Below are positions 1,034 to 33,774 of a DNA stretch of 39,249 bases, piece by piece. The stretch comes from a virus (Duplodnaviria > Caudoviricetes). The stretch lies in the IMG/VR virus record IMGVR_UViG_3300014202_001563, positions 1-39,249 of that record; one strand, 5' to 3'. The notes under the pieces are model-generated. The model had not been told where the DNA came from and searched no databases. It worked only from the letters and a program-made list of their open reading frames with translations. How positions within the stretch are numbered: the first letter of the stretch is position 1; each line of letters opens with the position of its first letter. The translations under genes were made by a program, and so were the position numbers.

Positions 1034-1897
1034 TTACGGGATTACATTAGCTCCCGTATATGTTAAAAAGGCCTTTATCCTGGCATAGACTAAAAGATAC
1101 TCTGCTTGTGTAAAATGTCTGAATACCCCAAAAAACGGGTATTGCCTTGCTGCGAAATTACCTGCTGTTCCAGAACCGTTATTATCACAAGAAACATACA
1201 AATCTGCGTTAGTCAAAGTGCCGGATACTTTAACATCCCTTATTCTAAGAGTATCATTTATATAACTATAAAGACTATCAGCGTCTTTACGTGTAACACT
1301 ACGCAACCCAAGCGAATGATTCATACCAAAAGCAGCTTGATCCAGAGAATTGATCCCTGTATATAATTTATTACCCAGTCTTATAAATACGAATGATCCC
1401 CTTGTTTGGCCGGAAACGAACACACCAAAATCACGCCCATTATTTATATCAGTTCTTGAATAGATCATCAAACTGCCATTGTTCAGGCTGTAATTTATTG
1501 CATCAACCGTAGGGTTATAATTAGTATTCATCCAGGTACTTGTGCCGTTTCCCAGCCAGCCCAAAAACGGAGTAAACGTAGTACCCCAATTAGTCAAGGT
1601 ATCCCCCGTTACCCAATCAACCCTGCTGGCTGCCTCGTTCTCTGTTGCAAACCATATACGATCCGCAATATCGTTAAGGTTTGTTTCGTTTAGATCTGTT
1701 TTCAGTCCTTTTATAAAAGTATCAATTGCCGTTTTTAACGTATCTGAAAACGTTCCCCGGCTAAAATATGCCTGTGCATCCGCATCATAAGATGGAGCAT
1801 CAATCGCCCCTGGTGTATTCCAGTAGTAATACTGAACACTTGAATTTTGTGCAAAGACAACTCCGGCATGAAATAATATTAAGAATATATACTTCAT
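1034..1897 (-). CDS. Signal-peptide-bearing protein with tail-fibre/lectin (LamG-like) beta domain
   Basis: Start moved to MKYIF (ATGA overlap with upstream stop at 1894-1896); signal ending VFA-Q; YDADAQAYF helix then G/N/T-rich beta region typical of phage adhesin-like proteins. Confidence 0.5.
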   Translation of the reverse strand: MKYIFLILFHAGVVFAQNSSVQYYYWNTPGAIDAPSYDADAQAYFSRGTFSDTLKTAIDTFIKGLKTDLNETNLNDIADRIWFATENEAASRVDWVTGDTLTNWGTTFTPFLGWLGNGTSTWMNTNYNPTVDAINYSLNNGSLMIYSRTDINNGRDFGVFVSGQTRGSFVFIRLGNKLYTGINSLDQAAFGMNHSLGLRSVTRKDADSLYSYINDTLRIRDVKVSGTLTNADLYVSCDNNGSGTAGNFAARQYPFFGVFRHFTQAEYLLVYARIKAFLTYTGANVIP

Positions 1898-2289
1898 TTT
1901 TCGCCCCATACCTGGATTGAAAATTCCTGTGCCGTGTTTTCACCCCAGAATTTCCGCAAGCACATATCACTGTATTCCTTTACACTAAACCGGCCTAAGT
2001 AATCCCAGTTTGATGATCCGGCAACCTTACGCCAATTACCGGCTGCATAAGTTGTATCACCGAAACTTACCTTTAAAACACTATCACATTTTACTGCAAC
2101 CTCATAATACTGATCATATACCTGCCCCATCTTTGTAATAGGTATTGGCAAAGTATCATGCGTACTTAAATTGATCTCAAACAAACTTGTTAGCAGTATC
2201 TTGTTTGTATCAACATTGCCGGTATAAATTGGCTGCGAATTCACCTGGTAACACAAAAACAGTAAAACAATAACGATTAATTTTTTCAT
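1894..2289 (-). CDS. Small secreted beta-sandwich protein, unknown function
   Basis: MKKLIVIVLLFLCYQVNS-Q signal peptide; alternating beta pattern; first gene after late promoter copy. Confidence 0.6.
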   Translation of the reverse strand: MKKLIVIVLLFLCYQVNSQPIYTGNVDTNKILLTSLFEINLSTHDTLPIPITKMGQVYDQYYEVAVKCDSVLKVSFGDTTYAAGNWRKVAGSSNWDYLGRFSVKEYSDMCLRKFWGENTAQEFSIQVWGEK

Positions 2290-11300: not shown

Positions 11301-14300
11301 TTGCTTTTGCTTTCCAGCAGTTCCCTCTTTTCCTGTTCCGGCATTTCCGCTATCATCTTCGGATTTACCAGTTTCCAGTTCTCCAGGAGCATTGTCTTGA
11401 TCTTCCCTTTTGAGTTTACTTGTGTCGGTAACATCTTCTTTACTCTCTTTCTGTGCTGTAATATCGTCATTTTTTTCAGCTTTTTCAATAGCGGCATTGG
11501 TTATTTCCGATATGTCAAAATCCTTAACATATCCAAAATCATCCATTTTTGAGGATATTTCATCCTCTGTACTTGTCTTGTATGCATTGTAACCCATCTT
11601 AAGTGGATTGAACAATACCTTAAAATTATCCTCACCGAATTTCCGGTAAACATCTTCAAGCATTTGCTTGAAATTATAATAACCTTTTTCGATATACTTA
11701 CCTATCAACTGAACAGAGATTGTTAAAGCCTCCGGATCTATACCGGCTGATAGTTTTCCCCTGGTTAAATTCAGCAGCTTGTTTCCCAGATCCTCAATAT
11801 CTTTATCGATCTGATCAATTTTTGTATTCTTACCGGCATTTCTTTCTGCAAGTTCCTCACGTGTTAAAAAATCTGGTTGAATATCCGATATATTTGTAGC
11901 AATTTGAACACCGCTTTTTGATGGAATTACAGTAACTCTTTGAGTAAATTTTATATTATTTTTTCCTACATAGTAACGAACACCTTTTTGATCTTCCCAA
12001 ACATAATTACCATCTTCATTTATACCTAAAGGTTTATCTGTAACATACCCAGGCTGCTTTTTATCATCTGGCCTTACTGTAACTTTGGTTTCATGAATAA
12101 CTTCCTTTATTTCCTTGATCTTTTGTTCAGCTGCCGATATATCTTTTTTTGTTTCCTCCGAAATTTCCGGTTTAACTTTTTTACCTGGTTTTTTCTTAAC
12201 CGGTTTTTTTGCCGGTTCAACTTTGCTCCAGGTTTCAAGAAAACGGCTTTCATTCACATAGCCGCCATCTTCAAAATATACCTTACCGCTTTCGATCCTG
12301 GTTACTACACCATTACGATCATCACTAAACTCATGCTGGTAAGTAGCCCCTATTTCAATCTTCTGTTTAGGCTGCTTTTTAACTTTTTTCTTTTGATCAG
12401 CAGTTCCATAAGTTTGCTCATACCTATCAAGATGTTCATTAACAGTATCATTAATTTTTTTAACAGATTCACCGTTATTGATCTCATCAAAAATATCATC
12501 ACTGATCATTGATAGATCACTTTCCGGTATATTAATCTTACGTTTCTTTGCCTTATCCCAAATGATCCCGGCTATTTCCTCACCAAATTCAGCAGCTTTA
12601 GTATCAAGATCCGATCTTGACTGCTTAATTTCACCCTGTAATGCGGCTATTTGTTTCTTTAAATCTGCCTTAGTTTCCCTGGCTTTTTTGGTACTTCCCT
12701 TTACATTCTTTATATCTGCCCTTAACCTGCTTGTTATGTTTTCAGCACGTTTAATTTTATCCTCCAGCTTTGCCGATACCTGGTTCCATAGATCCGAAAA
12801 TTCCACATTTGTCCTATCAAAGAACTGGCCGGCATCAAAGTACTCACTTTCCGGATCGCTTGTATCTTGATTTTCCTCACTAATTTCAGTATCTTTGTAT
12901 ATGACATCAGAACTAACATCATTCGCATCAGAGGATAAATCATCAGGTAGATTTACAGTGTTTTCAGCTGCACTTGGAGAGTTCTTCATTAAATCCGGAG
13001 ATTCCTGGGTTAAAGATGTTCCATCACCGGATGATCTTAATGATAACTTCTCACGTGTCAATGATCCTAAATTATCTGCCAAACTCATAAAAGAGGCCGA
13101 AAACTCCGCTTCTGTCTGATTAACCCTCTTTAAATATTTCTGGAAAGCCTTATTATAAATCTTATTACTTTTTTGTAACGCTTTAGCATACTTCACCTGG
13201 TTAGCTTTCAGGTACTCCGGAGTTGCATTCCTCCATAGTTCAAATGCCTTATGGTTGATCTTCTTGGCTGCCTCAAGTTCTTTTATTGGTAAGTAATATT
13301 CCACCAGCTGCCCGTTAGCCATCTTAAGATCAAAACCTACAAACCTCCAGCCCCACTCTTTTGGAGTGAGCATTTTTTCAGTATCAACCTTTACAATTTC
13401 TAAACCTTTTTCATTTATCTTATCATATACATCCCTCAACTGATCAGTATTATCAATCACCGTTTTAAACCTGAAACTATCCCGAACATGTTCAACATCA
13501 TGCCACTGTTTTTGTGATTTGATAGATGGCCTGTTAGCCTTTTCAATGATCTTTTCCGGATCTTTATAACTGAACTTACTTGATGTTCCCAGATCAGCAT
13601 CAACCTCTTTGATGAACTCACTTACAACAGGTTCATTTTCAGCAGATAACTTCTGTAACTGCTGTACTTTTTCCTCCTGGCTTGCCTTGGGATCAATTGG
13701 ATTCATAATAAGGCTTTCCGGATCTGCCTCAACTTCGATCTTCTCACTGGGTTTTATTTCCTCAACAGGCTTATCTGTGCCGGTTTCCTGTTCCTGTGGA
13801 GCGCCTGTGAGCTTGTCTATGCCGCTTTTTACACCCACACCCATCACATTAGCCATTCCACCCAGTAACATGCCCTGTAAACCGCCTGTAATAGCCTCAT
13901 CCATTGCATCACGGCTATCATCATAGGTATTCCTGGCAACTAAGCCACTGGCTAAATTCTGCCCGAATTCCTGTAAACCCTCCTCAAATGATCCCTCTAT
14001 GCCGCCTTTCAGCAGCCGGGTTATTCCGTTTCCGGATACCTTATTGATACGATCCAAAGTTCTGCCAATTGGCAATCCCTCTGTCATACCTACCGGTATA
14101 TTTGCCAGGAAGATATGAAATGCTAATTGTTCATCACCGGTTTTTTCATACGCTGCGTTAAATTCACTTTGCCCCTGTACTACCGATCCGAATAACATAG
14201 GCATGATCTTGCTGTTCAAACCCAGTACATTACCGGTTAAACTTGTCAAATAAAATGCTGCCAAACTTCCGGCCCCACGTGAAAGACCTACATCAAAATT

Positions 14301-15053
14301 TTCCTCCACAAACGGATTAACCGGCAACTTTTCAGTTACACCCTTATCAAGCCTTTCACCGGTTTTATAAAATGGCCTGTCCTCCAGCTTTGTATCACCC
14401 ATCATAAGGCCGTATAGTGATGGCATTGGAAAATTCTTATTCCATACATCAATCGATTTCAACGGTTCAATTACAAGTGTTTGTGCGAAACTCTGTAATA
14501 ATCCATTGGCATAATCTTTTATATTCGCATGTACATCCTGTTTCCTGTAATCCTGTATTACTTTCGGAACTGGTAAACCTACCTTTACAGCCCAATCAAC
14601 TGCATCATTCTGTTTTTTTCTTTCATCCTGTTGCTTTTTTACCTCCGGATCAATTATATCAATTGTCTGCCGGTTCCTGTTTGTGCGTTTATTTCTGCTT
14701 AAAAACTCCTGGAATGAAACATCTTTATCCAGGTTTATATTCGGATAGATCATAGAATCTATCCCGGATTTTGCCTCAACCATCTTTGATGTAGGTACTA
14801 ATGTTTGCAGCCCTGGAGCGATCTTAGGATCACTCTGTTCATATTCCGGGTAAACAGTTGTACCATTTACGGATTTAGCTATTTTACTCTCAAAATTCTT
14901 TGGAGCTAAATTAAGTTGTAAAGGATTCCCTTGCAGCAATTCTTCAATCGATACCGGCTCTTTTTCCTTTTTTAAAAGATTTTCCTTTGCAACACTCTCT
15001 ATCCTCGAAAAATCTCTTTTATACTTTTTCCATTTCTTTATATCACTTCCCAA
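2343..15053 (-). CDS. Giant polyvalent DarB-like internal virion/ejection protein (RelA/SpoT-like NTase, N6-adenine MTase, SNF2-type SF2 helicase, zincin peptidase, LPD38-like C-terminus)
   Basis: 4236 aa; KDPEKIIEK/VRDSFRF/GWR..VEYYL; VEPSSGIG and SNVPFG; HVVGAGKT, VDEAD, ATGTP, MGAGVNIQ, EQREGR; HETAH; PYFSA..IRIRIPEQ; TTG start 1 nt after upstream stop. Confidence 0.88.
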   Translation of the reverse strand: MGSDIKKWKKYKRDFSRIESVAKENLLKKEKEPVSIEELLQGNPLQLNLAPKNFESKIAKSVNGTTVYPEYEQSDPKIAPGLQTLVPTSKMVEAKSGIDSMIYPNINLDKDVSFQEFLSRNKRTNRNRQTIDIIDPEVKKQQDERKKQNDAVDWAVKVGLPVPKVIQDYRKQDVHANIKDYANGLLQSFAQTLVIEPLKSIDVWNKNFPMPSLYGLMMGDTKLEDRPFYKTGERLDKGVTEKLPVNPFVEENFDVGLSRGAGSLAAFYLTSLTGNVLGLNSKIMPMLFGSVVQGQSEFNAAYEKTGDEQLAFHIFLANIPVGMTEGLPIGRTLDRINKVSGNGITRLLKGGIEGSFEEGLQEFGQNLASGLVARNTYDDSRDAMDEAITGGLQGMLLGGMANVMGVGVKSGIDKLTGAPQEQETGTDKPVEEIKPSEKIEVEADPESLIMNPIDPKASQEEKVQQLQKLSAENEPVVSEFIKEVDADLGTSSKFSYKDPEKIIEKANRPSIKSQKQWHDVEHVRDSFRFKTVIDNTDQLRDVYDKINEKGLEIVKVDTEKMLTPKEWGWRFVGFDLKMANGQLVEYYLPIKELEAAKKINHKAFELWRNATPEYLKANQVKYAKALQKSNKIYNKAFQKYLKRVNQTEAEFSASFMSLADNLGSLTREKLSLRSSGDGTSLTQESPDLMKNSPSAAENTVNLPDDLSSDANDVSSDVIYKDTEISEENQDTSDPESEYFDAGQFFDRTNVEFSDLWNQVSAKLEDKIKRAENITSRLRADIKNVKGSTKKARETKADLKKQIAALQGEIKQSRSDLDTKAAEFGEEIAGIIWDKAKKRKINIPESDLSMISDDIFDEINNGESVKKINDTVNEHLDRYEQTYGTADQKKKVKKQPKQKIEIGATYQHEFSDDRNGVVTRIESGKVYFEDGGYVNESRFLETWSKVEPAKKPVKKKPGKKVKPEISEETKKDISAAEQKIKEIKEVIHETKVTVRPDDKKQPGYVTDKPLGINEDGNYVWEDQKGVRYYVGKNNIKFTQRVTVIPSKSGVQIATNISDIQPDFLTREELAERNAGKNTKIDQIDKDIEDLGNKLLNLTRGKLSAGIDPEALTISVQLIGKYIEKGYYNFKQMLEDVYRKFGEDNFKVLFNPLKMGYNAYKTSTEDEISSKMDDFGYVKDFDISEITNAAIEKAEKNDDITAQKESKEDVTDTSKLKREDQDNAPGELETGKSEDDSGNAGTGKEGTAGKQKQADPGGDGSGNETNDTERNKRNNGRPISDGTGDERSLVKGSGNYRITNDADIVDEKFSPTKKADDNIRAIETLKKIQSDFRSASQVTQAEKDILVKYVGWGGIPDIFDERKKNWAKRYKQLKELLSEADYRSAKGSVLNAHFTHPAIIRGMWNAIQKFGFTGGNIVEPSSGIGHFIGTSPQSIHDNSKFTAVEIDNLTGQIGKYLYSDSDYLIQGFEDVPIMDESVDLFISNVPFGDYAITDIDYKEKFKTSRIHNYFFVKAIDKVKQGGIVAFITSKGTMDSLNSEVRQYLNSQAALVGAIRLPNDTFLQNANTSVATDIIFLRKKFDNEKTVNATRVSKDYYTYDKGFKKVKGTPLSEAIAGFEDYDLFYTESENGNFRIYDGVTGKSITLGIKRENFDAVKKQWNEVTGNIRTKLRVMYEKMGDEILYSPRYIKNNEWIKTEKQTFQGKDEPAAVNINTYFVNHPEMVAGKMEIGDGLYSNNELIVTPTSDNLEQQLSEIIDRHLPKGIFQAEKSETTDIYDKLMLENPATKELPDGAFVIIDGVVYRKINEFKEDGKTVQSLRKINVKGTALDRIKGMISINDAARDLIRTENESADDSMMQKEMKSFNKMYDKFVKEFGFLNDRKNINMLKDKEYGEDPNLAFLKALEIYDEDKKTYTKSDIFNKRVSFPVKKIDKADNSLEALTISLNEFGNINLERIAELTGKTTDEAVQDLRGIIFKDPESGEFQTGDEYLSGNVKKKLELAEEKAKNEPEYIDNVDALIKVQPADLVAAEIDVSLGSNWIPVEDYQEFADMIIDRKGVIKIGYSQALNNWKADYPDMYGYGNTSSNNSEWGTERVWGSDLLLMSLNHKTPKVYDTYYEGTEKKRVLNKKDTAVAQEKQQKIKTRFKEWIWENEDRKKRLVDHYNKHFNNLKVRTFDGKHLTLEAANHEVADRLFPHVRDAAFRITQQRDVLLAHVVGAGKTWTMVTAAMELRRLGVAKKPMFVVPNSLVSQFSKEFLLLYPNAKLLTITKDDFKKEKRNIFMSRIATGDWDSIIVSHSTFKMLPVTNATFNQHIEEQLAILEAALIEAQNETDSRNSVKRIVAAIKKLEEKLRSIDRGIKRDKTIYYEDLGVDQLFVDEADLYKNLFFATKITNMPGIANTYSDRAMDLYIKTNYLRSKYGKGIVFATGTPVSNSLAEMFTMQRYLQPQLLKEYGIEHFDNWVHDFGETETKYEVDVLGSGFQVKTRMAKFMNIPELMNVFRLVADIKTAEQLNLPRPKLKGGKPTVVKIKPSPELERYIKVSLSERMEAVKSRDVDPRDDNMLKITNDGRKASIDMRLIDPTMPDDPGSKVNEAVKNMYSIWEKTKKEKSTQLMFLDLSTYKKGQFNLYDEMRNKLVEMGIPKNEIAFHQEFDTDIGKLKLYDAVNAGTIRIVFGSTERMGAGVNIQKRLIALHHLDAAWRPRDIEQREGRILRQGNSNAEVEIFRYITEGSFDAYMWQLLENKARFIGQIMTGDTNIRKAEDIDGRHLSYAEAKALATGNPLVLEKFKVADRLYKLNALRQDHNKLVDKAKHILATYPGRIVNLQDEIKRANKDRKKIPGDVKSIAKHVEDHPLKVQGKDYDKLKEFDAAVADEIKKFFAEVRSEGIERTIGDFLGYDINVRMVKDFWASRSADAQKWAVEVSLKGEDSYPVVDVKQDSASNYEYYSRMFNAVTTRLDHTVEANERLIVESKRELDKSGDLAKKTFDNEAEYNELSVKAIEIDNELGIGEQSEQDIDDSDEAEDSKNIAELGLKNRTHGYNSLSHQDRKSMMELAKDPNRVLSGIKPGEFLVSDRIKAVLQDIGVLSRERGLLKKFAGKFNKISQLIRVNALYDIVAAAHETAHFIDDTYQIVDEIKMNNDKSIINELQDLYLMYYPDAKQGDNKKLQIIEGIATFIHEYFQNPAGMVNAYPELVREFINPNGQYYKKEFTMLLEGLNEIVDDFAQLTPDERVGARIRDGKEVVHRDTGFNWWQKLIYQMQNANEPLERVAEHAGVRNSIHDPSVFGYARGLKNHFMAQWIKGDKMILLDQRGNITELEGSVSSYLKLIEGKEKQFSRYLVMRRVSAEFDQMFKLENELNKLKKEIEKYDKDDPEAKELQFEINQLQRDYDEVESRIRNNDFSLQDAQAVTSEFEDQFTEAAGIYDRVNRALTEFMFKTGLIKPEIAEAFNKKDNYTAFYRFVNDELNTGSLNVSQNSLSKVRSLRKYTGSRLDIIDPVYNQITAITETIGKGLENLTWLKLWELSEKHYQVAQRFENVPTFSVMNEQTGKIEYPQDKDSSLMRVFVDGEKLYFRLAPELKAIKENFRSEEMSLLVKVLTLPSKLFTRMTTSANPIWAMGNLTIDQVTASIQSETGFKPGVSAAKSFVDWLSRDALWKKYNYIGGKRSTFANSMRDKSPADLKQELIGDTFTGKAMKAVDAGLSILEMPSNLSELFTRFAEFRRAKEQGMSDLEALYLANEVSVPFNKRGHWWGHDKLILGSLPYFSATINALAKFGSTAQKHPVRTGTWTAAILVSAFTNAIATMIAGSDDQKRQLSEMPVKELTRAIYIPEPSGQGFIRIRIPEQIGSISGLAYLFVISHYGNNQTSFKEYAEVATSWIPDQFNVSDPVKLLISWTPKMIRPTFETAANVRTYPEIAPIVPQYLMDKAPEMQYTEYTSNVSRFIGKVLKLSPMKVEYWLSNQFGGLGGLIMRTASNYRPSLPIYRWEKDYIMKGRSYRNFYDSYNAVKQQFSRLKESGDSFSVEEKKQIIEQKILYDETNETLSGLRKLLNEKKNLPEHIKEQAYRLMLEFDKNSDNTNLTLRLTDLNKKTRQLLDESNIKTPSRLRFSQDVLNDKVNKQMELMGGKTTNKDLGFESKLNRINDVLIENGIYAYKPSDKERKSNKIDQQRVKRYLGGGYVELESKTGKKYKKWVNGRIQILENSVKNKKLSKKKADELKKKIKGAWKELQEVK

Positions 15054-23383: not shown

Positions 23384-24721
23384 TTATCCCCAGATCTTTG
23401 CAATATCATCCTTATCACCATAGATACCATGCATCTCTGCAAGTGCTAAGAAGAATGCGCCCTCTGTAAGTAACTGATCATGCGATCCATCCAGCCCCGG
23501 TAACTGAACATTAGCCTGGAATAATGTTGTTTGCAGCATACGCTGTTCAATAAACCTGGTATGGATAGGAATGTACAACGGTTTTTCATTGTCCGGAGCT
23601 ACATCAGTCAATATAGGATGTTCCCAAATATCCCACGTGCCTTTTCCGATCCTTACACGCTGAACATTAGGCACACCGTAACTCTTGACTTCCGGATTAA
23701 CGATACAAAGTTTATCCTCATTCAGTTCATTGAAGAAATCTATACCGGCTCCATTGGTAATACAAAGTCTGTGCTGGTATTTGTTACCCTGTACACGCCT
23801 TGGAACAAACAACTTATTGGCAAACTGTTTCAGCTTGGTATATGAATGAGAAGTGTATCCTGGGGCTGTACCACCGGTTTCAATAAATACATTCGGAGAT
23901 TTGTTGAGGATCTTGTAAACCATACCCTCATAAACGCCTCTGTATTCATTTGTATCATCAGCCGGTTTCTTTTCACGGTTCATAAGGATACTCCACTCCA
24001 TATCCTCACTGTGATCACCCTCACACTCCATTCTCATCCTGGCTCTTTCAGTTTCGCCATACAAACGCTCCTGGCTCATTGTTCTGCTTAAAGCATAGGA
24101 ATTCTTGAAGATCTGTGTTTGATAACCATCCTTGGTAGGTTTAACGGTCAACGGGCTTGATTTATCTGATCCCTGTGGAAATGCTGTACCAATATACATA
24201 ATCTTATCTGTGGCTGCTGTAATAGCGGTTAAAACCTTACTTACATACATTGGTATTACCGTGATATTGTCCCCGGTTCTTGCAGTAACAATAAACATGT
24301 TTGTTTCACCAGTCAATAAAGCATCAGTTTTCATGATCTTGTAATACTGGTTAGCTGCAAATGCTTTACCTTTTCCTGTGGGAAGATCGATTTCAGTCCA
24401 TGAGGCTGCTTTATTTTCAGCTACACTAAACAGCCTTTCACGTGATCTTTGCTCAAAATAGAAACCCTCTGAACTGTTAGCCTTTTGCCTGGCCAATTCC
24501 TGTGAAAGTTTAGTGAGAAATGTTACTCCCTCCCTATCCTTGAAGATCTCTTTCTTGAAATCGAAATCAATACGATCCTTACCATCATAAGATTTCATGT
24601 AATCCGGATGGTACACCGGTACATCTACTGCGAATGTGAAACTGGTAAACAGTGATACGACTGTTATTAAGATCAGCGATAATAGATATGTCGCTGATTG
24701 GAATAATCTGTGTAATTTCAT
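23384..24721 (-). CDS. Major capsid protein (DUF5309/SU10-like HK97 fold) with hydrophobic N-terminal leader
   Basis: YQTQIFKNSYALSRT, EDMEWSILMN, GVYEGM, IWEHPIL motifs; after scaffold; SD AGGAG 8 nt before ATG. Confidence 0.85.
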   Translation of the reverse strand: MKLHRLFQSATYLLSLILITVVSLFTSFTFAVDVPVYHPDYMKSYDGKDRIDFDFKKEIFKDREGVTFLTKLSQELARQKANSSEGFYFEQRSRERLFSVAENKAASWTEIDLPTGKGKAFAANQYYKIMKTDALLTGETNMFIVTARTGDNITVIPMYVSKVLTAITAATDKIMYIGTAFPQGSDKSSPLTVKPTKDGYQTQIFKNSYALSRTMSQERLYGETERARMRMECEGDHSEDMEWSILMNREKKPADDTNEYRGVYEGMVYKILNKSPNVFIETGGTAPGYTSHSYTKLKQFANKLFVPRRVQGNKYQHRLCITNGAGIDFFNELNEDKLCIVNPEVKSYGVPNVQRVRIGKGTWDIWEHPILTDVAPDNEKPLYIPIHTRFIEQRMLQTTLFQANVQLPGLDGSHDQLLTEGAFFLALAEMHGIYGDKDDIAKIWG

Positions 24722-24882
24722 TTCTTAACTCCTGGGTTTTGCCCCGAATAATTAATTAAAAAGTTTAGTAAAACTGGCTCTTTAGTTAATATCAGAATTT
24801 AGTTATTTATTACACCCTCTATTCCGTTATATCTGTTATCGCTGATATACTTGGGGTAGGATGTGGAAACAACCTGCCGAAC

Positions 24883-26055
24883 TTAAGCCATCAAGTTCTT
24901 GAGTTTTTCCTCTCTGGTATTTCCTTTTACTGCATAAACCGTATCCTTATCACTTGCACGATCTTTGCTTTTATCAGCATCATCACCAGTGCCGGATGTC
25001 GATTTATTTTGTTTATCCTTAGTTTTCTCCAGTTTTTTATCCAGATCTTTGCTGGCTTTATCCTTGGTTGAACTATTTTTCAAAAAATCTAAATGTGCGT
25101 AATTGAACTTGTAATTCCTGTAATAATCAACCGGTTTCATATCGCCAATTGTAGCTTTGTTGATTATCTCCAGCAGCAAGTAACCTTTCTGTACTTCCGG
25201 ATCATCCTTTGTCCTCTTGCCGTCTTTTTCCTCTTTCATTATAGCAATGTAATCATCACTTAATTTCAACTCCGGGAAGTTCTCTGCAAGATCGATTACC
25301 TGATCCTTAAAGTAATTGATCTTTGTTTCCCTAACAATATTCACCTTATCCAGCTGCAACTCATCAAGTTTTCTCTGTGCATCCCTCTGATCCATTTTGA
25401 GATCCATCTTTTTATCATCATCATCCAGGGTATCAGCCTTGGTATCAAGTATAGCCTTTAATCTTGTTTCCTGTTCAATCAGATCATTAGCTTTGGTTTC
25501 CAGTGCTGCACGTTCTGTTTTTATAGCCTCTTTTTCTTTGGCTATATCCTGATCTTTCCGGCCCTGGGTTTTCATCCACTCATCCCGGTTTCTGCCGAAT
25601 TCAATATCAATATACTTTTTGCGGTATGCCTCTTTCTGATCATCAGAAAGCATCTTGAAATCTGTGATGATACCCTCAAACTCTTTTTCTACCAACGGAT
25701 CTATTTCAGCCTGGGTAAAACTCTTTGCTCCGATCTTGTAAGGTTTTTCATCAGCTGCTTTATTCTTGCCGGATTTATCCTCTGTATCTTTTTTATCCTT
25801 GGGATCATCAGCTGGTTTATCTTTAACCGGTTTATCAGCTGGTTTATCCTTATCCGGTATAACCCCATCTTTACCCAGTTCAACCTCTTTATCATCCGGC
25901 AATAGTTCATGGATCTCACTGATCTCGAAATCTTGCTTAATTGCGTTTATATCCATTTCAGCATCACTGAATGAAAACTTACCGGCTGTTGCTGCTATAA
26001 AATATGATACTAATGAAAACAGATACAAAATGGAACTTCTAATTGATTTGATCAT
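24883..26055 (-). CDS. Capsid scaffolding protein with hydrophobic N-terminal leader
   Basis: D/K-rich disordered region, YKIGAKSFT motif, long coiled coil, immediately upstream of capsid; ATGA-coupled start. Confidence 0.75.
   Translation of the reverse strand: MIKSIRSSILYLFSLVSYFIAATAGKFSFSDAEMDINAIKQDFEISEIHELLPDDKEVELGKDGVIPDKDKPADKPVKDKPADDPKDKKDTEDKSGKNKAADEKPYKIGAKSFTQAEIDPLVEKEFEGIITDFKMLSDDQKEAYRKKYIDIEFGRNRDEWMKTQGRKDQDIAKEKEAIKTERAALETKANDLIEQETRLKAILDTKADTLDDDDKKMDLKMDQRDAQRKLDELQLDKVNIVRETKINYFKDQVIDLAENFPELKLSDDYIAIMKEEKDGKRTKDDPEVQKGYLLLEIINKATIGDMKPVDYYRNYKFNYAHLDFLKNSSTKDKASKDLDKKLEKTKDKQNKSTSGTGDDADKSKDRASDKDTVYAVKGNTREEKLKNLMA
25807..25860. repeat. 27-bp imperfect tandem repeat in scaffold linker (P-x-KDKPAD x2)
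   Basis: atcagctggtttatctttaaccggttt / atcagctggtttatccttatccggtat. Confidence 0.85.
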
Positions 26056-26651
26056 TGTAGTATTGTGATTAATTTAATAAAATATGGTATTAAGATTACT
26101 GTACACCCTATGATAAAACTTGCTTTAAACCTGCTGTATGAAAAATCTATGTAACCGAATAAGAAATAAAACCTTTTTAACCAGTATGGATTGCCCTGGT
26201 ATTCCTTAACCAGTCCCAATTGCCCTAATTCAATGTAGTATCCGAATTCAGCCACCATAAAGAACAGCCCTATCAGTGTTGTAAAGAATTCCAAATGCCT
26301 GGCTGCATAATCTAATGGAGCAAATACACTGATCTCAAAACCGATCCCAAAGAAGTAAATGAGTGCTAAAAATATTATATCGATAACAGCCTGGATTATT
26401 ACCCTGTACCTGAACACATTCTTATGATCAAGTATAACTCCGGTATTTTGCCTGGTTATTACAATAGCGTATTCAGTAAACAACCATTTCAGCTGCTTGC
26501 TGAATCTTTTGTACAGCCTGTTCCAAAGATCATTGAGATATATTGCGAATATCCCTACCGGATTTATCTGCCCTTTTATCTTACGTTCATAGAAAAACCC
26601 GTAAAACAAGGCATCAACTGTTATCTTCTTTATGAAAAATAGTAAACTCAT
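26052..26651 (-). CDS. Multi-pass membrane protein in head module
   Basis: 199 aa, F/I/L/Y-rich, about 3-5 hydrophobic segments; ATGA-coupled on both sides. Confidence 0.7.
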   Translation of the reverse strand: MSLLFFIKKITVDALFYGFFYERKIKGQINPVGIFAIYLNDLWNRLYKRFSKQLKWLFTEYAIVITRQNTGVILDHKNVFRYRVIIQAVIDIIFLALIYFFGIGFEISVFAPLDYAARHLEFFTTLIGLFFMVAEFGYYIELGQLGLVKEYQGNPYWLKRFYFLFGYIDFSYSRFKASFIIGCTVILIPYFIKLITILQ

Positions 26652-26856: not shown

Positions 26857-28911
26857 TTATGCTGCTGCTGTTTGCTGTTGCTGATTTGCTGCCGGTTTCT
26901 TGCCGCTTTGTTCCTGTTGCATATCATACTGCTGCATCATCATTTGTAATTTCTGCATAAGTTCAGGCCGTTTAGCTAATTCACCGGCTAACTGCAATAT
27001 CTGATTTTCTTCACTAAGCAGCTTAAGAATTTCCTCTTTCTCATCACTCAAACCTACTGCATCATAGATCATCTGTTTTGGATAATCACCTTTTAAGTAC
27101 AGCTGCCATTTAACATTAAGATCCTGTTCCTTATCCTTGGCACTATCAAATTTGAACAATACCTTGATATTCAATCTATCATGCTCATCTAACGGATTGA
27201 TTATAGCCCTGAACTTGAATTTGAATTCCTCCGGGTTTCTTGTCATTGGAGCGATCACATGAACATCATTTTCCTCCTCAAACTTCTCAACAGTGATCTT
27301 ATTACGCTCCAGCAGATCCATGTACTCATCATGCCCCAGTGTAGCATTAAACGGAATGTAATAATCACTCTTGGTATTCTGATCCAGCAGTTGAATGTAA
27401 TGTTTATCCTCAAATTCTGTGGCTGCTATTTTGTAGATCAGTTTTGCCTCCTGGCTTGCTGCCCAGCTGTAATTTATATCCTTGTAGTTTGTAGGCCTCC
27501 TCTGTTCAGCTTGCAAAGAAAGTATGCTCTTTGTGCTTAATGCCTCTTTAGGATATTTACCCTCACTGGCATCAGTTATAAAACCGGCATCCATTAAATA
27601 CTGCTGTACTTTCATTATAAGAGGCTGTAAATCGTTTCCTAATCCCTCAACATTAAAATTGATGATCTGCTTTCTTATATCATCAGCATCAGCATTCTCA
27701 AATTCTAATGCACCGCCTGTTCTGATGAAATCTGTAATGGTATCAATACCATACTCATCAGAAAGAGTTTTAGCAACAAACAGTCTTAATTTGTTCCGCT
27801 GCCGAACATTATCTAACTGAACTGTATCCATGATATTGCTCAAATCCTGTAATACCCGGAAGAACTCAATATCGCTTAATGGATGTAACCGCAAATTACT
27901 GTGCTTATTGTAATACGGAGTTAAAGTGAACTGCTTGTAAGGATTTATTTCATGGTGTATTATTCCAATTGGCTTGTAATAAAGTGCCTTGAAGTAAACC
28001 ATTTCCTGATTGTTTACCATGCTGTCCTCATTACCGATCCTGTCCTTAACATCATAATGTGCAGCCATATCATATTTTGCAGGGAATACAATCCTGTATT
28101 GAATCTTGTAAACTGAACAATGAAGATCCTGTGCCTTTACAAACAGATCCTCATTAACGGAATGGTTCTCTCTCCATTCATTATCCGGAGTAACATCACC
28201 AGGATCGAAACCGGCCTTTTTACATAGCCTTTTAACCTCTGATATGGTTTCTTTCTTAAGATGAACAAAGTAATTGGCATCCTTGAAGTATTTTTTTGTA
28301 CTGTCCGGATCGATACCTACATCTTTTGGTGAAACCGTGTTCATTTCAATTGCACCACCCTGGGCAACAAGCCTTTCAGGATTGTAATCAATATCAGTGA
28401 AGTATAAGCCTAAAATATTAGTTTGCTCAATTGCAGGGATTCTGTAATCAGTCCACATGTTTTCATAATCATCCTCATCAATACCGGCTATATGATCTTC
28501 ATAGTATTCGAACATCCTTTTGATCTGTAATGTGATGTTCCTGTGTTTAGGGTTATTGCTGGCCTTGTTTACGGATATTGTTTTCTCTGCATCAGTGTAT
28601 TGACCGGTATAACGATCAATCATCTTTCTGCACATGTTGTTGATAACGAACATCTGATCATCATCATCTTTTTCCAGTGCATTTAATCCGTTCTTTGCCC
28701 TGAAATGAGCAACTATATCACCGCTAAACCCTGGAGGCACTTGATGTCCCTCATAATACAGAATATCATTGTCCCAGGTAGGTAACATCTTTTTTACTAC
28801 CTTAAAACTATCATCGATTTTAGCATCAAAATCAGTCTTTAACTGACTTTGTATTTCTGGCCTGATTAGATCCTTAAGGGATATTTGTCTTGGATCAGTA
28901 TATTCGTTCAT
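26857..28911 (-). CDS. Portal protein (P22/SU10-like)
   Basis: YYEGHQ, VINNMCRKMID, VSPKDVGIDP, Q-rich C-terminal tail; start moved to MNEY because the listed TTG lies inside the promoter element. Confidence 0.85.
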   Translation of the reverse strand: MNEYTDPRQISLKDLIRPEIQSQLKTDFDAKIDDSFKVVKKMLPTWDNDILYYEGHQVPPGFSGDIVAHFRAKNGLNALEKDDDDQMFVINNMCRKMIDRYTGQYTDAEKTISVNKASNNPKHRNITLQIKRMFEYYEDHIAGIDEDDYENMWTDYRIPAIEQTNILGLYFTDIDYNPERLVAQGGAIEMNTVSPKDVGIDPDSTKKYFKDANYFVHLKKETISEVKRLCKKAGFDPGDVTPDNEWRENHSVNEDLFVKAQDLHCSVYKIQYRIVFPAKYDMAAHYDVKDRIGNEDSMVNNQEMVYFKALYYKPIGIIHHEINPYKQFTLTPYYNKHSNLRLHPLSDIEFFRVLQDLSNIMDTVQLDNVRQRNKLRLFVAKTLSDEYGIDTITDFIRTGGALEFENADADDIRKQIINFNVEGLGNDLQPLIMKVQQYLMDAGFITDASEGKYPKEALSTKSILSLQAEQRRPTNYKDINYSWAASQEAKLIYKIAATEFEDKHYIQLLDQNTKSDYYIPFNATLGHDEYMDLLERNKITVEKFEEENDVHVIAPMTRNPEEFKFKFRAIINPLDEHDRLNIKVLFKFDSAKDKEQDLNVKWQLYLKGDYPKQMIYDAVGLSDEKEEILKLLSEENQILQLAGELAKRPELMQKLQMMMQQYDMQQEQSGKKPAANQQQQTAAA

Positions 28912-28923
28912 TAATTCCACATG

Positions 28924-28968
28924 CAAAAATATGGAATTAAAATATGTTATTTACAGTGAGAGTATTTT
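28924..28968 (-). promoter_or_regulatory. Late promoter copy 1: 22-bp box plus TAnnTTTG element
   Basis: Minus strand AAAATACTCTCACTGTAAATAA (28968-28947), 15-nt spacer, TATTTTTG (28931-28924), 12 nt before portal ATG. Confidence 0.8.
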
Positions 28969-29299: not shown

Positions 29300-29707
29300 T
29301 TATTTCAATCTATGATTCAAGATTTTTCTATATCTTTGCTTTAATACAGATGGATACTTTTTTGAAGTTCCGAAAAGCGTAACCACTTCATTACTCCTAT
29401 TGATTTTATCTGTTGAATTCCACTTCTCACCACCCATATTTACACCGCTTGCACAAGCCCCATACAATTTACTACAACCATTTTTAATTCCATCCATAAC
29501 ACAAACTCTCGAAACCTCTAAAACTAACCCATTATCTAACCTCCTCGAAACAGGCCTGCCGCAAATTGCAACGCCTACACACACATCTTTTTCATATAAC
29601 GAAATAGCAAATTTATACCCCTGTACTTTCTTATGATGCCTATGGAAACGCTCAACAAATGAACATGCGGCACGTAAAGAAATTGGCCTTATTTCAAAAC
29701 GGCTCAT
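29300..29707 (-). CDS. XF1762-family (Mom-like GNAT fold) protein, apparently with internal in-frame deletion
   Basis: FVERFHRHH, GVAICGRPVSRRLD, LEVSRVC, NGCSKLYGAC; expected GY..I.TY.L..E.G segment absent. Confidence 0.75.
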   Translation of the reverse strand: MSRFEIRPISLRAACSFVERFHRHHKKVQGYKFAISLYEKDVCVGVAICGRPVSRRLDNGLVLEVSRVCVMDGIKNGCSKLYGACASGVNMGGEKWNSTDKINRSNEVVTLFGTSKKYPSVLKQRYRKILNHRLK

Positions 29708-30051
29708 ATCCCATCAACCGGCTCTCTAACACTCGAAAACATCTTTCCATCTGGCCTGTTTTCCTCGAAACTCCTTAACCCATCCAATGCACTTTTTAAG
29801 CTATCTGGGATGATCTGTACAGGCTTTTCCTCTTGAACAAACTCCGTTATTGGCCGATTCATCCAGGTACATACCAGCATAATTGTATCTATATCAGATT
29901 TATCACACCGCAATAACCGGCTCAATGTTGAGGCTGATATACCGGCAAGTTTACCGATCTCTCTCAATCCCAGGTTTCTCTCTGCTTGTTTCTGCAAATT
30001 ACACCTGGTTTCAATTATCGCTGCCTTAAACAACTCTTTGTCAAATTTCAT
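29704..30051 (-). CDS. XRE/Cro-CI-type HTH regulator
   Basis: LGLREIGKLAGISASTLSRL..DIDTIMLVCTWM. Confidence 0.85.
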   Translation of the reverse strand: MKFDKELFKAAIIETRCNLQKQAERNLGLREIGKLAGISASTLSRLLRCDKSDIDTIMLVCTWMNRPITEFVQEEKPVQIIPDSLKSALDGLRSFEENRPDGKMFSSVREPVDGI

Positions 30052-30053
30052 AA

Positions 30054-30944
30054 TTATTCACAAATATGATAAACTGATTGACACTGGGGAATACCCCACA
30101 ATGTTGGTGGATTTTTCATCTGAACATACTTTACAACATCTTCCATTACCGGAGCTTTACCTGGTGTACCATCTTTACGAAATACTGGCTTGCTACAATA
30201 TCGCTCCGGAATGTAATCCATAGGAAAGAATGTTGTATCATTCTCTTTTTCGTATTCGGCAATCTCTAATAATCGATCCGGATCCTGTTGAGAAATCAAT
30301 AAAACCTCCCCTAATTGACACATTATACAAGGATAGCAGCCTACCCTGGAATAGCCTTTGTAATACAATGGATTTATACGCTGCCCAGCCTCAAGACAAT
30401 AACTGATCACTTCTTTAGCAGTCCAATCAAATACTGGTCTTATAACTGTTGTAGTATATATTTCTGAATGATACTTTACTTCAAGTTTCCTGTATTTCTG
30501 AAATTTTGGTTTACCTTTTTTATCAACACCATAAGGCTCAAAGTAATACCTGAAATAGTTATCAACCTTATTCATCAATGCTCTTTGTTTGCTTTCATCT
30601 GCCCTCACACCCTGATAAATGACAACATTTGAACTAAGAGATAATATATAATCAAGCATAGGTTCAAACTTCAATTTCTCTGTACAAAATCTACTCATTG
30701 TTGATGGAAATCTACCTTTTTTTCTTACAAGATCAATCATTCCGTAATACTTCTTACTGGTTAAAACAATGATCTCAATCTTATTTACTTCTTGCAGGTA
30801 TAATAAATGCTGATACGTTACATCTTTTTCCCAATCAGTATCACAAAACACATACAAGATAATACCGGTAAGATGTCTTTTAGCCCAGATCACTGTGGCC
30901 TGACTATCTTTTCCACCACTAACAGGTACTATATGGATTATCAT
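30054..30944 (-). CDS. PAPS reductase / DndC-like PP-loop protein
   Basis: SGGKDS, FCDT, RFCTEKLK, GVRADES..R, RVGCYPC. Confidence 0.9.
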   Translation of the reverse strand: MIIHIVPVSGGKDSQATVIWAKRHLTGIILYVFCDTDWEKDVTYQHLLYLQEVNKIEIIVLTSKKYYGMIDLVRKKGRFPSTMSRFCTEKLKFEPMLDYILSLSSNVVIYQGVRADESKQRALMNKVDNYFRYYFEPYGVDKKGKPKFQKYRKLEVKYHSEIYTTTVIRPVFDWTAKEVISYCLEAGQRINPLYYKGYSRVGCYPCIMCQLGEVLLISQQDPDRLLEIAEYEKENDTTFFPMDYIPERYCSKPVFRKDGTPGKAPVMEDVVKYVQMKNPPTLWGIPQCQSVYHICE

Positions 30945-32410
30945 ACAATCGATCTCCTCCTCCTGTTGGCTAATCTTTGTTTGATTTCCTCATCTTTATC
31001 ACTGGTTCTCTTGAAAGGCTGCCTAAACCCTACTATTGCGTTCCTACCGGCCTCATACCAGTGATCATCATCAGTATCCTGATCAATATCATCCTCATAA
31101 ACCGGATCACGCCTCAAATATGGCATTGTTTCTACCAGCTTCGGGCATCTGCCCCGGAAGATGTAAAACTTCGGTTTCCTCGTAAAGATATCTTCACCGG
31201 CTGCATTCAGCGTTCTATCCCACATCATCAAGTCCTGTATATGCTTTCCAGTCCATACCCTGAAATTCATATCTTCGCTCTTTACCTTGCTAACCGGAGC
31301 TATTTTCATTCCCATTGCCTCGAACTTGGCTGCTGGAGCTATTTTAACATCAAGTAATTTGTTCTTAGCCCATAATGTTACATCCCACCTGGTAATCACA
31401 TCCAGATCACCCAGCCTTTCAAGAAACTTGTAACAGCTTTGTGCCGCTGCTGTTGTTCCGGCCCCACCATCAGTTGTATGTTCAGCGTAAAAGAAATAAT
31501 CACCATCAGAACTCCTGGCTACCATTTCCATACAAGTTACATTGCCGTAATCGCCTCCACCCTGCTTTTTCCAGTCATCAGGTATATCAAATGGCTCTAT
31601 CACGTGAACTTCTATGTTCCACATACTGAAATACTGCCCCTCATGTGTATCCCAGTTGCCCTCAAAATACCTGGCTCTATCAGCTGCCGGTAACTTCGAT
31701 AACCTATCAACGATCCCCGGATCCCTTTCGATCAGTAATTTATTATCGAATACATTTGCCGGTATAAATAATACTTTATGCGGTTCATAAGGATTCTGTA
31801 AATTAACAAGTTTTGGAAACTTCACATTAAAATCCTTGTCAATGAAATAACTTTTTAATGCCCTGGTACTATCAACCGCTGCTGATGGATCACCTGGATT
31901 AGTTGTAAGCATCATAAACGGAGTGAAACCTTTTATACTTGCCGCAAGCCTTGATCTCAACAGCAATATCAGTTCCATACTCACCGTTACAGCCTCATCT
32001 ACACCGATAATATCATACTCATTACCCAGCCTGTTCCGGAACTCTGCCCTGGTTTGTCCGTATGCAAATCTTAAAATACTATTGGTACAGTACGTGATCC
32101 TGTATTTCTGTCCGTTATACGTGTACCACTCATCCGGAAGATCATATTCCAGTTTTTCTATATGGTTTTCCTCCAGCTGCCCCAGGGTATTCCTTATCAG
32201 CAGCATTTTAAGCCCCTGAAACTGCAAACCAAAATAATGCATGGTAAACCTCAAACTATGGCTCTTGCCGCCTTTAGCTGCCCCTCCATACATGAATTCA
32301 GTTATCCCGGTTTCATCACGCCTAAGTACAGCATCATGGAAAAATGTTTGCTTTTCCTGGCTCTCATACCAGATCTTACCCGAACTATCCTTTATTACTA
32401 ATGGCTGCAT
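30941..32410 (-). CDS. terL: Terminase large subunit
   Basis: YGGAAKGGKS Walker A, IGVDEA Walker B, TTNPG coupling motif, GGDYG and DDHWYEA nuclease motifs. Confidence 0.93.
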   Translation of the reverse strand: MQPLVIKDSSGKIWYESQEKQTFFHDAVLRRDETGITEFMYGGAAKGGKSHSLRFTMHYFGLQFQGLKMLLIRNTLGQLEENHIEKLEYDLPDEWYTYNGQKYRITYCTNSILRFAYGQTRAEFRNRLGNEYDIIGVDEAVTVSMELILLLRSRLAASIKGFTPFMMLTTNPGDPSAAVDSTRALKSYFIDKDFNVKFPKLVNLQNPYEPHKVLFIPANVFDNKLLIERDPGIVDRLSKLPAADRARYFEGNWDTHEGQYFSMWNIEVHVIEPFDIPDDWKKQGGGDYGNVTCMEMVARSSDGDYFFYAEHTTDGGAGTTAAAQSCYKFLERLGDLDVITRWDVTLWAKNKLLDVKIAPAAKFEAMGMKIAPVSKVKSEDMNFRVWTGKHIQDLMMWDRTLNAAGEDIFTRKPKFYIFRGRCPKLVETMPYLRRDPVYEDDIDQDTDDDHWYEAGRNAIVGFRQPFKRTSDKDEEIKQRLANRRRRSIV

Positions 32411-33040: not shown

Positions 33041-33304
33041 TCAGAATTGCTTATCCTTGGTTTTACTTCTCAATTCGTAACTTAAATTTTGCCTTTTTAT
33101 GATCTTCTTTTCCAAACAATATACCACAAGCCCTAACCGGCTTTTAACATTTACTGCCCGGAGCATACGTGATACTGCGTTCTCTACCGATTTATACGGC
33201 AATCCTAACAGTTCCGCTATCTCTTTGCTTGATTGATCCTTGCAGATCAAAAATATAAGATCCCTCTGTTTATTTGTAGGTTTCCAGCTTCTTTTTGTCC
33301 TCAT
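33041..33304 (-). CDS. Stand-alone LuxR/GerE-type HTH regulator (candidate late activator)
   Basis: TNKQRDLIFLICKDQSSKEIAELLGLPYKSVEN...LNV-like VKSRLGLVVY pattern. Confidence 0.85.
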   Translation of the reverse strand: MRTKRSWKPTNKQRDLIFLICKDQSSKEIAELLGLPYKSVENAVSRMLRAVNVKSRLGLVVYCLEKKIIKRQNLSYELRSKTKDKQF

Positions 33305-33774
33305 TACAGCAACTCCCTCACCTGGATTGTATCATAAGCTATCATGTGATTATAACCCCTCCAGCGCCTTTCATAATTGAACTGTGTTATTGTGGCCGTA
33401 ATGTTCTGCGCTATGATCAGCAGCAGCATGTTATTCCGGAATATCATTGTTTTTTTCTTCATGGTAATAATGTCCTCCGCTGATGGTTTTGCATTATCCG
33501 ATACATGAAAATGCCAATCACCTATGTACTGAACTTTATTTTTTGTCTTGAAAAACAGCCATACCAGTATTTTCAAAAATCCCCTTTTTGCAAAGAACTT
33601 GAAATATTTTGTATGCTCATTCTTCATTCTGATTAAACTGGTTACTGTGATCTCATTCCCGATCCTTTCACCCAGGATGATACCACCCTCCTCATTTACA
33701 AACCGGTACCCGGCCTGAAAATAACAGTCAATCAGCTGTTGGATCATTCTTTGGTTTACATTTACTTTTTTCAT
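33304..33774 (-). CDS. JAB/MPN (JAMM) metalloprotease
   Basis: EEGGIILG and YIGDWHFHVSDNAKPSAED = E...HxH-x7-S-x2-D. Confidence 0.88.
   Translation of the reverse strand: MKKVNVNQRMIQQLIDCYFQAGYRFVNEEGGIILGERIGNEITVTSLIRMKNEHTKYFKFFAKRGFLKILVWLFFKTKNKVQYIGDWHFHVSDNAKPSAEDIITMKKKTMIFRNNMLLLIIAQNITATITQFNYERRWRGYNHMIAYDTIQVRELL

What the first reader, a model, noticed from the sequence alone, without database searches (positions are those of the whole stretch)
24629..26055. Scaffold and major capsid share a homologous ~30-aa hydrophobic leader: candidate membrane-linked head assembly/processing system
Seen: the scaffold starts MIKSIRSSILYLFSLVSYFIAATAGKFSFSD and the capsid starts MKLHRLFQSATYLLSLILITVVSLFTSFTFAVD. 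They align without gaps as S-x-x-Y-L-[FL]-S-L-[VI]-x10-F-[ST]-F-[SA], with Y to F spacing of 16 in both. The codons differ at synonymous sites (TAT CTG TTT TCA TTA vs TAT CTA TTA TCG CTG), so the conservation is at protein level. Both long starts are supported (AGGAG SD for the capsid, ATGA coupling for the scaffold). Known: S. aureus phage 80alpha scaffold and capsid share a short N-terminal motif cut at F|A by the host Prp protease. Inference: this is an analogous but different system, in which membrane-length leaders tether procapsid subunits to the inner membrane and are removed at F|S and F|A.
Basis: partly seen in the sequence, partly recalled or inferred. Interest (0 to 1): 0.8.

Follow-up and report, generated by a model that had tools for sequence, protein, structure and literature searches.

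The report
Greasy capsid leaders with JAB protease
In this uncultured short-tailed phage lineage the shell protein, and often its scaffold, starts with an added greasy leader that likely ties it to the inner side of the cell membrane until a phage-encoded, ubiquitin-protease-like enzyme likely cuts it off, which would be an undescribed way to mature a phage head.

Summary
The leaders are real. The capsid (HK97 fold, SU10 type) belongs to a clade of 29 proteins (support 1.0, leaders removed before the tree); 26 have a hydrophobic N-terminal stretch, against 1 of 114 outside. In 26 of 29 an aromatic-small pair ([FY]-[ASG]) sits about 18 residues before the capsid fold, where leaderless sister capsids begin. 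Leaders of a related phage pair are under purifying selection (pN/pS 0.08). The scaffold carries a leader in 4 of 5 pairs. Prp was not found in 151 genomes of the likely host class (Ignavibacteria), and the leaders as a set fit host signal peptides poorly. New here: a Cap3-like JAB zinc protease gene lies just upstream of the terminase in 3 of 3 leader-clade phages, and in none of 7 near-complete leaderless controls; a published Cap3 cuts after Phe-Ala. Best reading: a membrane tether removed by the phage JAB; membrane binding, cleavage and cutter are all untested. The scan noted hydrophobic capsid leaders, and JAB plus Gly-Gly leaders, before on other DNA.

The parts
23384..24721 (-). Major capsid protein, 445 aa, HK97 fold, SU10 type
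   Evidence: Pfam PF17236 E 3.5e-8; AF2 model pLDDT 81; Foldseek best hit Vibrio phage VP1 capsid 9in6, E 6e-24
24629..24721 (-). Capsid leader, residues 1-31: basic start, hydrophobic helix (about 10-26), end motif F-T-F-A
   Evidence: KD19 2.24; residues 2-26 one helix, 27-47 pLDDT <50; kept in 3 of 3 close relatives
24629..24640 (-). Predicted cleavage motif of the capsid leader (F28-T29-F30-A31); bond inferred
   Evidence: [FY][ASG] at this register in 26 of 29 clade capsids, shuffle mean 12.6, max 20 of 2000
24729..24733 (-). AGGAG ribosome-binding site of the capsid gene
   Evidence: 7 nt before the ATG
24883..26055 (-). Likely scaffolding protein, 390 aa (by position between portal and capsid and by charged composition; no family hit)
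   Evidence: same position in L002, L004, L021
25966..26055 (-). Scaffold leader, residues 1-30, weaker hydrophobic stretch, end motif F-S-F-S
   Evidence: KD19 1.54; leader kept in P0189, which has no Met at the position of M34
26052..26651 (-). 199-aa membrane protein of unknown family; not a fixed part of the module
   Evidence: no Pfam or PHROG hit; homologue lies in the lysis region of G402 and was not found in G403
26857..28926 (-). P22-like portal protein, no hydrophobic leader
   Evidence: PF16510, phrog_156; KD11 0.3
30941..32410 (-). Terminase large subunit
   Evidence: phrog_979, PF03237
32385..32825 (-). Likely terminase small subunit (by position only)
   Evidence: overlaps the large subunit start; no family hit
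33304..33774 (-). Stand-alone JAB/JAMM zinc protease, Cap3-like, with E..GG and H-x-H-x7-S-x2-D intact; candidate leader protease
   Evidence: PF14464 E 2e-9; PADLOC JAB models to E 4e-17; homologues upstream of the terminase in G402 and G403

Best explanation
The capsid protein and the likely scaffold carry an added hydrophobic N-terminal leader that likely holds new subunits on the cytoplasmic face of the inner membrane, and the phage's own JAB zinc protease likely cuts after the aromatic-small pair to release them with a near-ancestral N-terminus. Shown by sequence: the leader is a gained, clade-wide feature of the capsid; the [FY]-[ASG] pair keeps a fixed distance to the capsid fold; a JAB gene with intact catalytic residues sits before the terminase in the three leader-clade phages where that region is covered. 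Inferred: membrane binding; removal of the leader; JAB as the cutter; cut after the small residue (A31|V32 in capsid, S30|D31 in scaffold). HK97 N-termini face the shell interior (own knowledge), so hundreds of subunits cannot stay membrane-inserted in a closed shell. The cut would therefore come before or during shell closure, and the tether would serve to concentrate subunits and time assembly. The scaffold leader is likely a secondary copy that puts the scaffold in the same place.
For: Clade of 29 with support 1.0 in a tree built without leaders. Hydrophobic stretch in 26 of 29 versus 1 of 114. Motif in 26 of 29, no shuffle of 2000 above 20. Leaderless sister capsids start M-A-D-V-P-V-V-Y or M-P-D-V-P-V, matching the window's F-A-V-D-V-P-V-Y. 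12 synonymous and 4 non-synonymous changes in two leader pairs, pN/pS 0.083, p 3e-6. L002 scaffold leader matches its own capsid leader best (67 versus next 40); the L004 pair shares PLFA. Basic residues between hydrophobic stretch and site in 14 of 24 leaders versus 4 of 40 host signal peptides, which favours a cytoplasmic site. JAB in G000, G402, G403; none in 5 leaderless records at least 90% complete, 2 cultured leaderless relatives or 40 kb of a leaderless host-class prophage. No other protease family in the Pfam scans. E. cloacae Cap3 cuts at a C-terminus that ends R-F-A (bioRxiv 2022.03.31.486616, passages). T4 and SPN3US proheads are released from the inner membrane by proteolysis (PMC9958956, PMC7411985, passages).
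Against: Nothing shows membrane binding or cleavage. The JAB link rests on three independent phages of one clade, so it may be a lineage trait, and no clade member was seen to lose leader and JAB together. G402 and G403 JABs score under the Pfam cut-off. No JAB in the 1.97 kb before the terminase ORF of L021, where the contig starts (inconclusive). Another prophage end carries JAB before its terminase with head genes unknown (G001:C84). The JABs are Cap3-like, and Cap3 overexpression blocks CBASS, a ready alternative job. The window's own capsid leader fits signal peptidase I geometry (gap 7, no K/R, T-F-A). 3 of 29 capsids lack the motif; 1 of 5 scaffolds lacks a leader; 2 of 4 scaffold leaders do not resemble their own capsid leader more than others (ranks 6 and 19 of 29). 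The small residue may be kept for the mature N-arm, not for a protease.
Confidence: 0.38

Rival explanations
1. The leader is a membrane tether that is removed, but by a host protease other than Prp (cytoplasmic or intramembrane); the phage JAB is a Cap3-derived counter-defence enzyme that strips CD-NTase conjugates and only travels with this lineage.
For: All phage JABs match PADLOC JAB models; after a prophage JAB, the next host-class hit of the phage JAB profile is a real Cap3 in a type II CBASS operon whose cyclase ends G-R-S-A; Cap3 overexpression counteracts CBASS. 80alpha shows that a host protease can do this job (PMC5744158).
Against: The JAB gene sits directly or within three genes upstream of the terminase genes in all cases, not among distant early genes; no host protein with this leader was identified; no paper on phage-borne Cap3 came up (listing; passages of one paper).
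Confidence: 0.25
2. The leader is a soluble assembly or folding element (like the 80alpha scaffold N-terminus or the HK97 delta domain): hydrophobic helices of capsid and scaffold pack on each other inside the procapsid, with no membrane step; it may be cut by JAB or not at all.
For: Several leaders are weak or amphipathic (KD19 about 1.0-1.1 in P0019, P0026, P0041, P0078). In 80alpha the scaffold's N-terminal sequence is needed for assembly but its cleavage is not (PMC5744158, passages). The L002 pair is alike along the helix end.
Against: Leader sequences diverge freely while bulk hydrophobicity is kept, which suits a membrane partner better than a protein partner; the scaffold leader can be absent.
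Confidence: 0.18
3. The leaders are Sec signal peptides cut by host signal peptidase I; the subunits engage the translocon and are either released back to the cytoplasm or exported, with shell assembly on the periplasmic side.
For: Basic start, hydrophobic core and small residue at -1; the window's capsid leader has T-F-A with a 7-residue gap; 10 of 40 host-class signal peptides have F or Y at -2; the 20 residues after the site are mostly net negative.
Against: Leaders are longer (median 32.5 versus 22.5), less hydrophobic, have longer gaps (13 of 24 at 10 or more versus 2 of 40; the host gap is capped near 13 by my search) with up to 6 K/R, and none of 24 has Gln at +1, which 40 of 75 host candidates have. 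The site is fixed to the capsid fold, not to the hydrophobic stretch. Portal and terminase have no leader, and packaging needs the cytoplasm.
Confidence: 0.14
4. The long starts are not used; translation begins downstream (scaffold M34, capsid V36 or M42) and the leaders are gene-calling artefacts.
For: In-frame downstream starts exist in the window; the scaffold ATG has no clear ribosome-binding site; database starts come from gene callers.
Against: Purifying selection on leader codons; hydrophobic leader across a clade at 19-36% identity; P0189 lacks the M34 equivalent; purine-rich site before the L002 scaffold ATG.
Confidence: 0.03

Closest known systems
Staphylococcus phage 80alpha capsid and scaffold leaders cut by host Prp (PMC5744158, passages)
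   Same: Both head proteins carry an N-terminal add-on that ends at Phe plus a small residue.
   Different: 80alpha loses 13-14 residues; here 19-51 with a hydrophobic helix. Prp not found in 151 host-class genomes, L27 has no extension, and the candidate cutter is phage-encoded.
CBASS Cap3 JAB protease (bioRxiv 2022.03.31.486616, passages)
   Same: Same family and catalytic motif; cuts a linear bond right after a short C-terminal motif, R-F-A in E. cloacae.
   Different: Cap3 sits in an operon with CD-NTase and E1-E2; the phage gene stands alone before the terminase, and its substrate is inferred.
T4 and SPN3US membrane-bound prohead maturation (PMC9958956, PMC7411985, passages)
   Same: Heads start on the inner membrane and are released by phage proteolysis that removes capsid N-terminal propeptides.
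   Different: In T4 the anchor is the portal with gp40 and YidC, and the enzyme is a packaged prohead protease. Here the candidate anchor is on the capsid itself and no such protease family was found.
Lambda and T1 tail assembly protein K, JAB plus NlpC/P60 (PMC1779556, passages)
   Same: A phage JAB in virion morphogenesis.
   Different: Tail module, fused to NlpC/P60, predicted to cut a ubiquitin-like tail protein at Gly; none of that is here.
SU10-type podovirus capsids of cultured phages (Caulobacter phage Kuura, Pseudomonas phage PaMx41; structure of Vibrio phage VP1)
   Same: Same capsid family, P22-like portal, same gene order.
   Different: Kuura and PaMx41 capsids have no leader and their genomes gave no JAB match.

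Membership tests
HK97-fold major capsid protein (SU10 type) | Family profile and fold match | tested here: met
   PF17236 above cut-off; Foldseek E 6e-24 to 9in6
Prp-processed phage leaders (80alpha type) | Host encodes Prp (PF04327) | tested here: not met
   0 of 151 genomes of the likely host class; control rings in 3 of 14. The host class is inferred from relatives, not shown for this window
Prp-processed phage leaders (80alpha type) | Host L27 has an N-terminal extension with the same motif | tested here: not met
   4 of 4 L27 read start MAHKKG
Prp-processed phage leaders (80alpha type) | Phe followed by a small residue at the leader end of capsid and scaffold | tested here: met
   26 of 29 capsids; 4 of 5 scaffolds
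Sec/SPase I signal peptides | Basic n-region and hydrophobic h-region | tested here: met
   KD11 at least 2.0 in 26 of 29, though lower than host peptides
Sec/SPase I signal peptides | Short, uncharged c-region, site fixed to the h-region | tested here: inconclusive
   Met by the window's capsid (gap 7, no K/R); not met by 13 of 24 clade leaders (gap 10 or more). No SignalP available
Sec/SPase I signal peptides | Export and cleavage by SPase I | not testable with these tools
   needs reporter fusions or inhibitors
JAB/JAMM (MPN+) metalloproteases | Catalytic Glu and H-x-H-x7-S-x2-D zinc motif | tested here: met
   E28, H88, H90, S98, D101 invariant in 5 of 5 aligned; the G403 spacer is one residue shorter
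JAB/JAMM (MPN+) metalloproteases | Cuts the capsid or scaffold leader | not testable with these tools
   needs an assay; the complex prediction could not be run
Type II CBASS | JAB in an operon with CD-NTase and E1-E2 | tested here: not met
   No such neighbours in the window, G402 or G403
Classical prohead proteases, C39 or rhomboid leader proteases | A gene of such a family in the phage | tested here: not met
   No Pfam hit among 35, 22 and 64 ORFs scanned; ORFs under about 100 aa, non-ATG starts and the 4993-aa G403 protein were not all scanned, and the window is 84% complete

The most novel reading that the evidence does not exclude
A tailed-phage lineage makes its HK97-fold capsid as a membrane-anchored precursor and has co-opted a Cap3-type deconjugating protease of bacterial immunity as its head-maturation enzyme, cutting after Phe/Tyr-small; the same enzyme might also blunt host CBASS. 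This would add a new protease class and a capsid-borne membrane step to tailed-phage assembly.
Probability: 0.3. Interest if true: 0.85.

Novelty: new variant of a known kind. Interest (0 to 1): 0.68.

Why it matters
Described prohead proteases are Ser-His enzymes (PMC7411985, passage), with host Prp as an exception, and the membrane anchor described for T4 is the portal. A capsid with its own membrane-type leader and a JAB cutter would change both points and link head assembly to the ubiquitin-like immune toolkit of bacteria. It is cheap to test with three small genes in E. coli. Ten full-text searches (listings, plus passages of seven papers) showed no report of hydrophobic leaders on tailed-phage capsids or of a JAB head protease; the library lacks most subscription papers.

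Tried and rejected
SxxYLxSL and the Y-F spacing as a shared signal: lost in P0189 and not specific among clade leaders. Prp: rejected. The membrane gene 26052-26651 as a fixed receptor or protease: its homologue lies elsewhere in G402 and was not found in G403; Atlas hits were unnamed and under 0.9. Locus searches that found nothing; the portal scan gave only the two known records; class and phylum scans of 401 genomes each gave no new clade member beyond G001 and G002. GenBank phages: only 11 distant records for the capsid, none for P0017 or the JAB (the JAB tblastn is too weak to count as a control). AF2 of the JAB from 5 sequences failed (pLDDT 42) and was not used. The JAB-leader complex prediction could not be run because the queue was full; this says nothing on binding. 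One public run held a small share of the DNA; its contigs did not cover the capsid leader start, the scaffold leader or the JAB; no RNA holder listed. G117 and G418 were not usable as JAB controls (contig ends, partial capsid). PMC4351075 had nothing relevant, so the earlier notes' claim about phage Patience was not checked. Supplements were not read.

Full report
Setting. The window is a whole virus record classed as a provirus, 84% complete. Its minus strand carries a podovirus-type module: terminase, P22-like portal, a membrane protein, a charged 390-aa protein, and an SU10-type capsid. The capsid model (pLDDT 81) matches HK97-fold capsids, best Vibrio phage VP1. The scaffold label rests on position and composition only. 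The host is inferred: one clade member lies in Ignavibacteria assemblies; the window itself has no host flank.

The observation. Sequences, register, codons and start signals are as stated. The register beats shuffles (94 of 10,000), but the window's scaffold leader scores as well or better with five other clade capsid leaders (own rank 6 of 29). P0189, paired with capsid P0006 by equal contig length and source, keeps a leader ending FVFS-D without the proposed motif (rank 19 of 29). What is shared is a design, not that motif.

The leader is a clade trait. A search of 1.84 billion representatives gave 207 hits, of which the best 150 were listed. I marked 30 proteins as leader-bearing (by hydropathy and by eye, with three under the threshold added and six flagged ones left out as fragments or short internal stretches), dropped 9 proteins under 340 aa, cut off the N-termini and built a tree of 144. 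Twenty-nine form one clade (FastTree support 1.0, midpoint root) beside a sister group of 11 leaderless capsids; P0146 is a separate case. Four of the 29 are close (80-84%), so they are not independent. An 11-residue window of hydropathy 2.0 or more occurs in 26 of 29, against 1 of 114 outside, P0146 excluded. AF2 draws residues 2-26 as one helix followed by a low-confidence link.

The leader end. [FY]-[ASG] lies 12-30 residues before the conserved R50 position in 26 of 29 (mostly 15-21; shuffles mean 12.6, max 20 of 2000), while its distance to the hydrophobic stretch runs from 3 to 27. Sister capsids begin M-A-D-V-P-V-V-Y, M-P-D-V-P-V-I-Y or M-A-D-K-P-V-V-Y, where the window reads F-A-V-D-V-P-V-Y. 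The leaderless L021 scaffold likewise starts where the window's scaffold leader ends (weak local match, score 37). The leader is thus an add-on, and its removal would restore the old N-terminus. In near-identical copies of a related phage the leader codons show 12 synonymous and 4 non-synonymous changes (pN/pS 0.083, p 3e-6), so they are translated. No such DNA pair was available for the window itself.

Pairs. Of five capsid-scaffold pairs, four scaffolds have leaders. L002 matches its own capsid best (67 versus 40; 10 of 19 residues identical), L004 shares only PLFA (rank 5), the window and P0189 are unspecific, and L021 has none (in-frame stop 21 nt upstream). The site positions of three motif-less capsids and of P0027 were set by eye. 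Leaderless loci have no hydrophobic scaffold leaders.

Who cuts. Prp was not found in 151 host-class genomes and L27 is short in 4 of 4. For signal peptidase I, I compared 24 leaders (P0004 and P0005 dropped as redundant, three without motif dropped, P0027 site set by hand) with 40 host-class peptides picked by a heuristic from 237 ORFs. The phage leaders are longer, weaker, more basic before the site, and never have Gln at +1; my host rule requires that Gln and caps the gap, so the contrast is partly built in. The window's own capsid leader would pass as a signal peptide; many clade members would not.

The JAB gene. ORF 33304-33774 is a JAB protease. Homologues lie upstream of the terminase genes in both other clade records, G402 and G403, with catalytic residues intact; G002 holds a 99% copy of the G402 gene. 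Controls with PF14464: 1 weak 23-residue hit among 17 leaderless records, none in the 5 that are at least 90% complete, two of which share a near-identical capsid; none in Kuura and PaMx41. With my JAB profile, none in 40 kb of the leaderless G335 prophage. L021 is inconclusive, and G001:C84 shows JAB before a terminase with unknown head. The JABs resemble Cap3. Published Cap3 cuts a linear fusion right after the cyclase's last residue, and the E. cloacae tail ends R-F-A (bioRxiv 2022.03.31.486616, passages). That matches the leader end, but the same paper shows Cap3 can switch off CBASS, which is the main rival job. I had tested the JAB link before seeing earlier scan notes on JAB with Gly-Gly leaders in actinobacterial phages; those notes are unchecked and are not counted as support.

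Mechanism. Shown: gained, translated, hydrophobic leader; fixed end motif; co-occurring JAB. Inferred: membrane binding (about 0.7), removal (about 0.8), JAB as cutter (about 0.5 overall); jointly 0.38. T4 and SPN3US give precedent for membrane-held proheads freed by proteolysis, and 80alpha for paired leaders, where cleavage itself is dispensable.

Verdict. Real and clade-wide; works like the 80alpha leaders plus T4-type membrane staging; not a member of the Prp system; a new variant with a testable candidate enzyme. Recalled rather than tested: the inward orientation of HK97 N-termini, signal peptidase rules, the Prp-type label for LQLFA motifs, and the hydropathy values.

Noticed in passing
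P0146: An SU10-type capsid outside the clade with a canonical-looking signal peptide ending A-N-A; an independent gain.
   Followed up: partly
L025:4288-5169; P0086; P0108: Scaffold and capsid N-termini with LQLFA or LQMFA, the Prp-type motif (label recalled), in distant SU10-type relatives: a second leader system in the same capsid family.
   Followed up: no
L087:2263-3103 (G001:C84): A different prophage end next to host genes, with JAB directly before small and large terminase; head genes not on the contig.
   Followed up: partly
L088:3555-7675 (G165:C12): Type II CBASS operon (CD-NTase ending G-R-S-A, E1-E2, JAB, plus a patatin-like gene by recall) in a host-class genome.
   Followed up: partly
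window 26052-26651; L071:9629-10207; L084: Unnamed membrane protein family that sits between portal and scaffold here but beside the lysis genes in G402; Atlas neighbours are unnamed Bacteroidota proteins (scores 0.89).
   Followed up: partly
L073:2199-3149; L092:2960-3910: Reverse transcriptase (RVT_1, E 4e-22) in the early region of G402 and G002, possibly a diversity-generating retroelement.
   Followed up: no
window 2343-15053: 4236-aa DarB-like polyvalent protein (methyltransferase, helicase, LPD38) at the end of the virion module.
   Followed up: no
window 1034-1909 and 1894-2289: Two genes with ordinary signal peptides followed by Gln, as in host-class secreted proteins; similar genes lie inside the virion modules of L002 (10719) and L004 (13951).
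   Followed up: no
window 29300-30944: Mom-like DNA modification gene, an HTH gene and a PAPS-reductase-like gene inserted between terminase and portal.
   Followed up: no
L002:9454-10038: The gene after the capsid has an E1 FCCH-like domain hit (PF16190, E 8e-13), a second ubiquitin-system echo in this lineage; likely a beta-barrel decoration domain.
   Followed up: no
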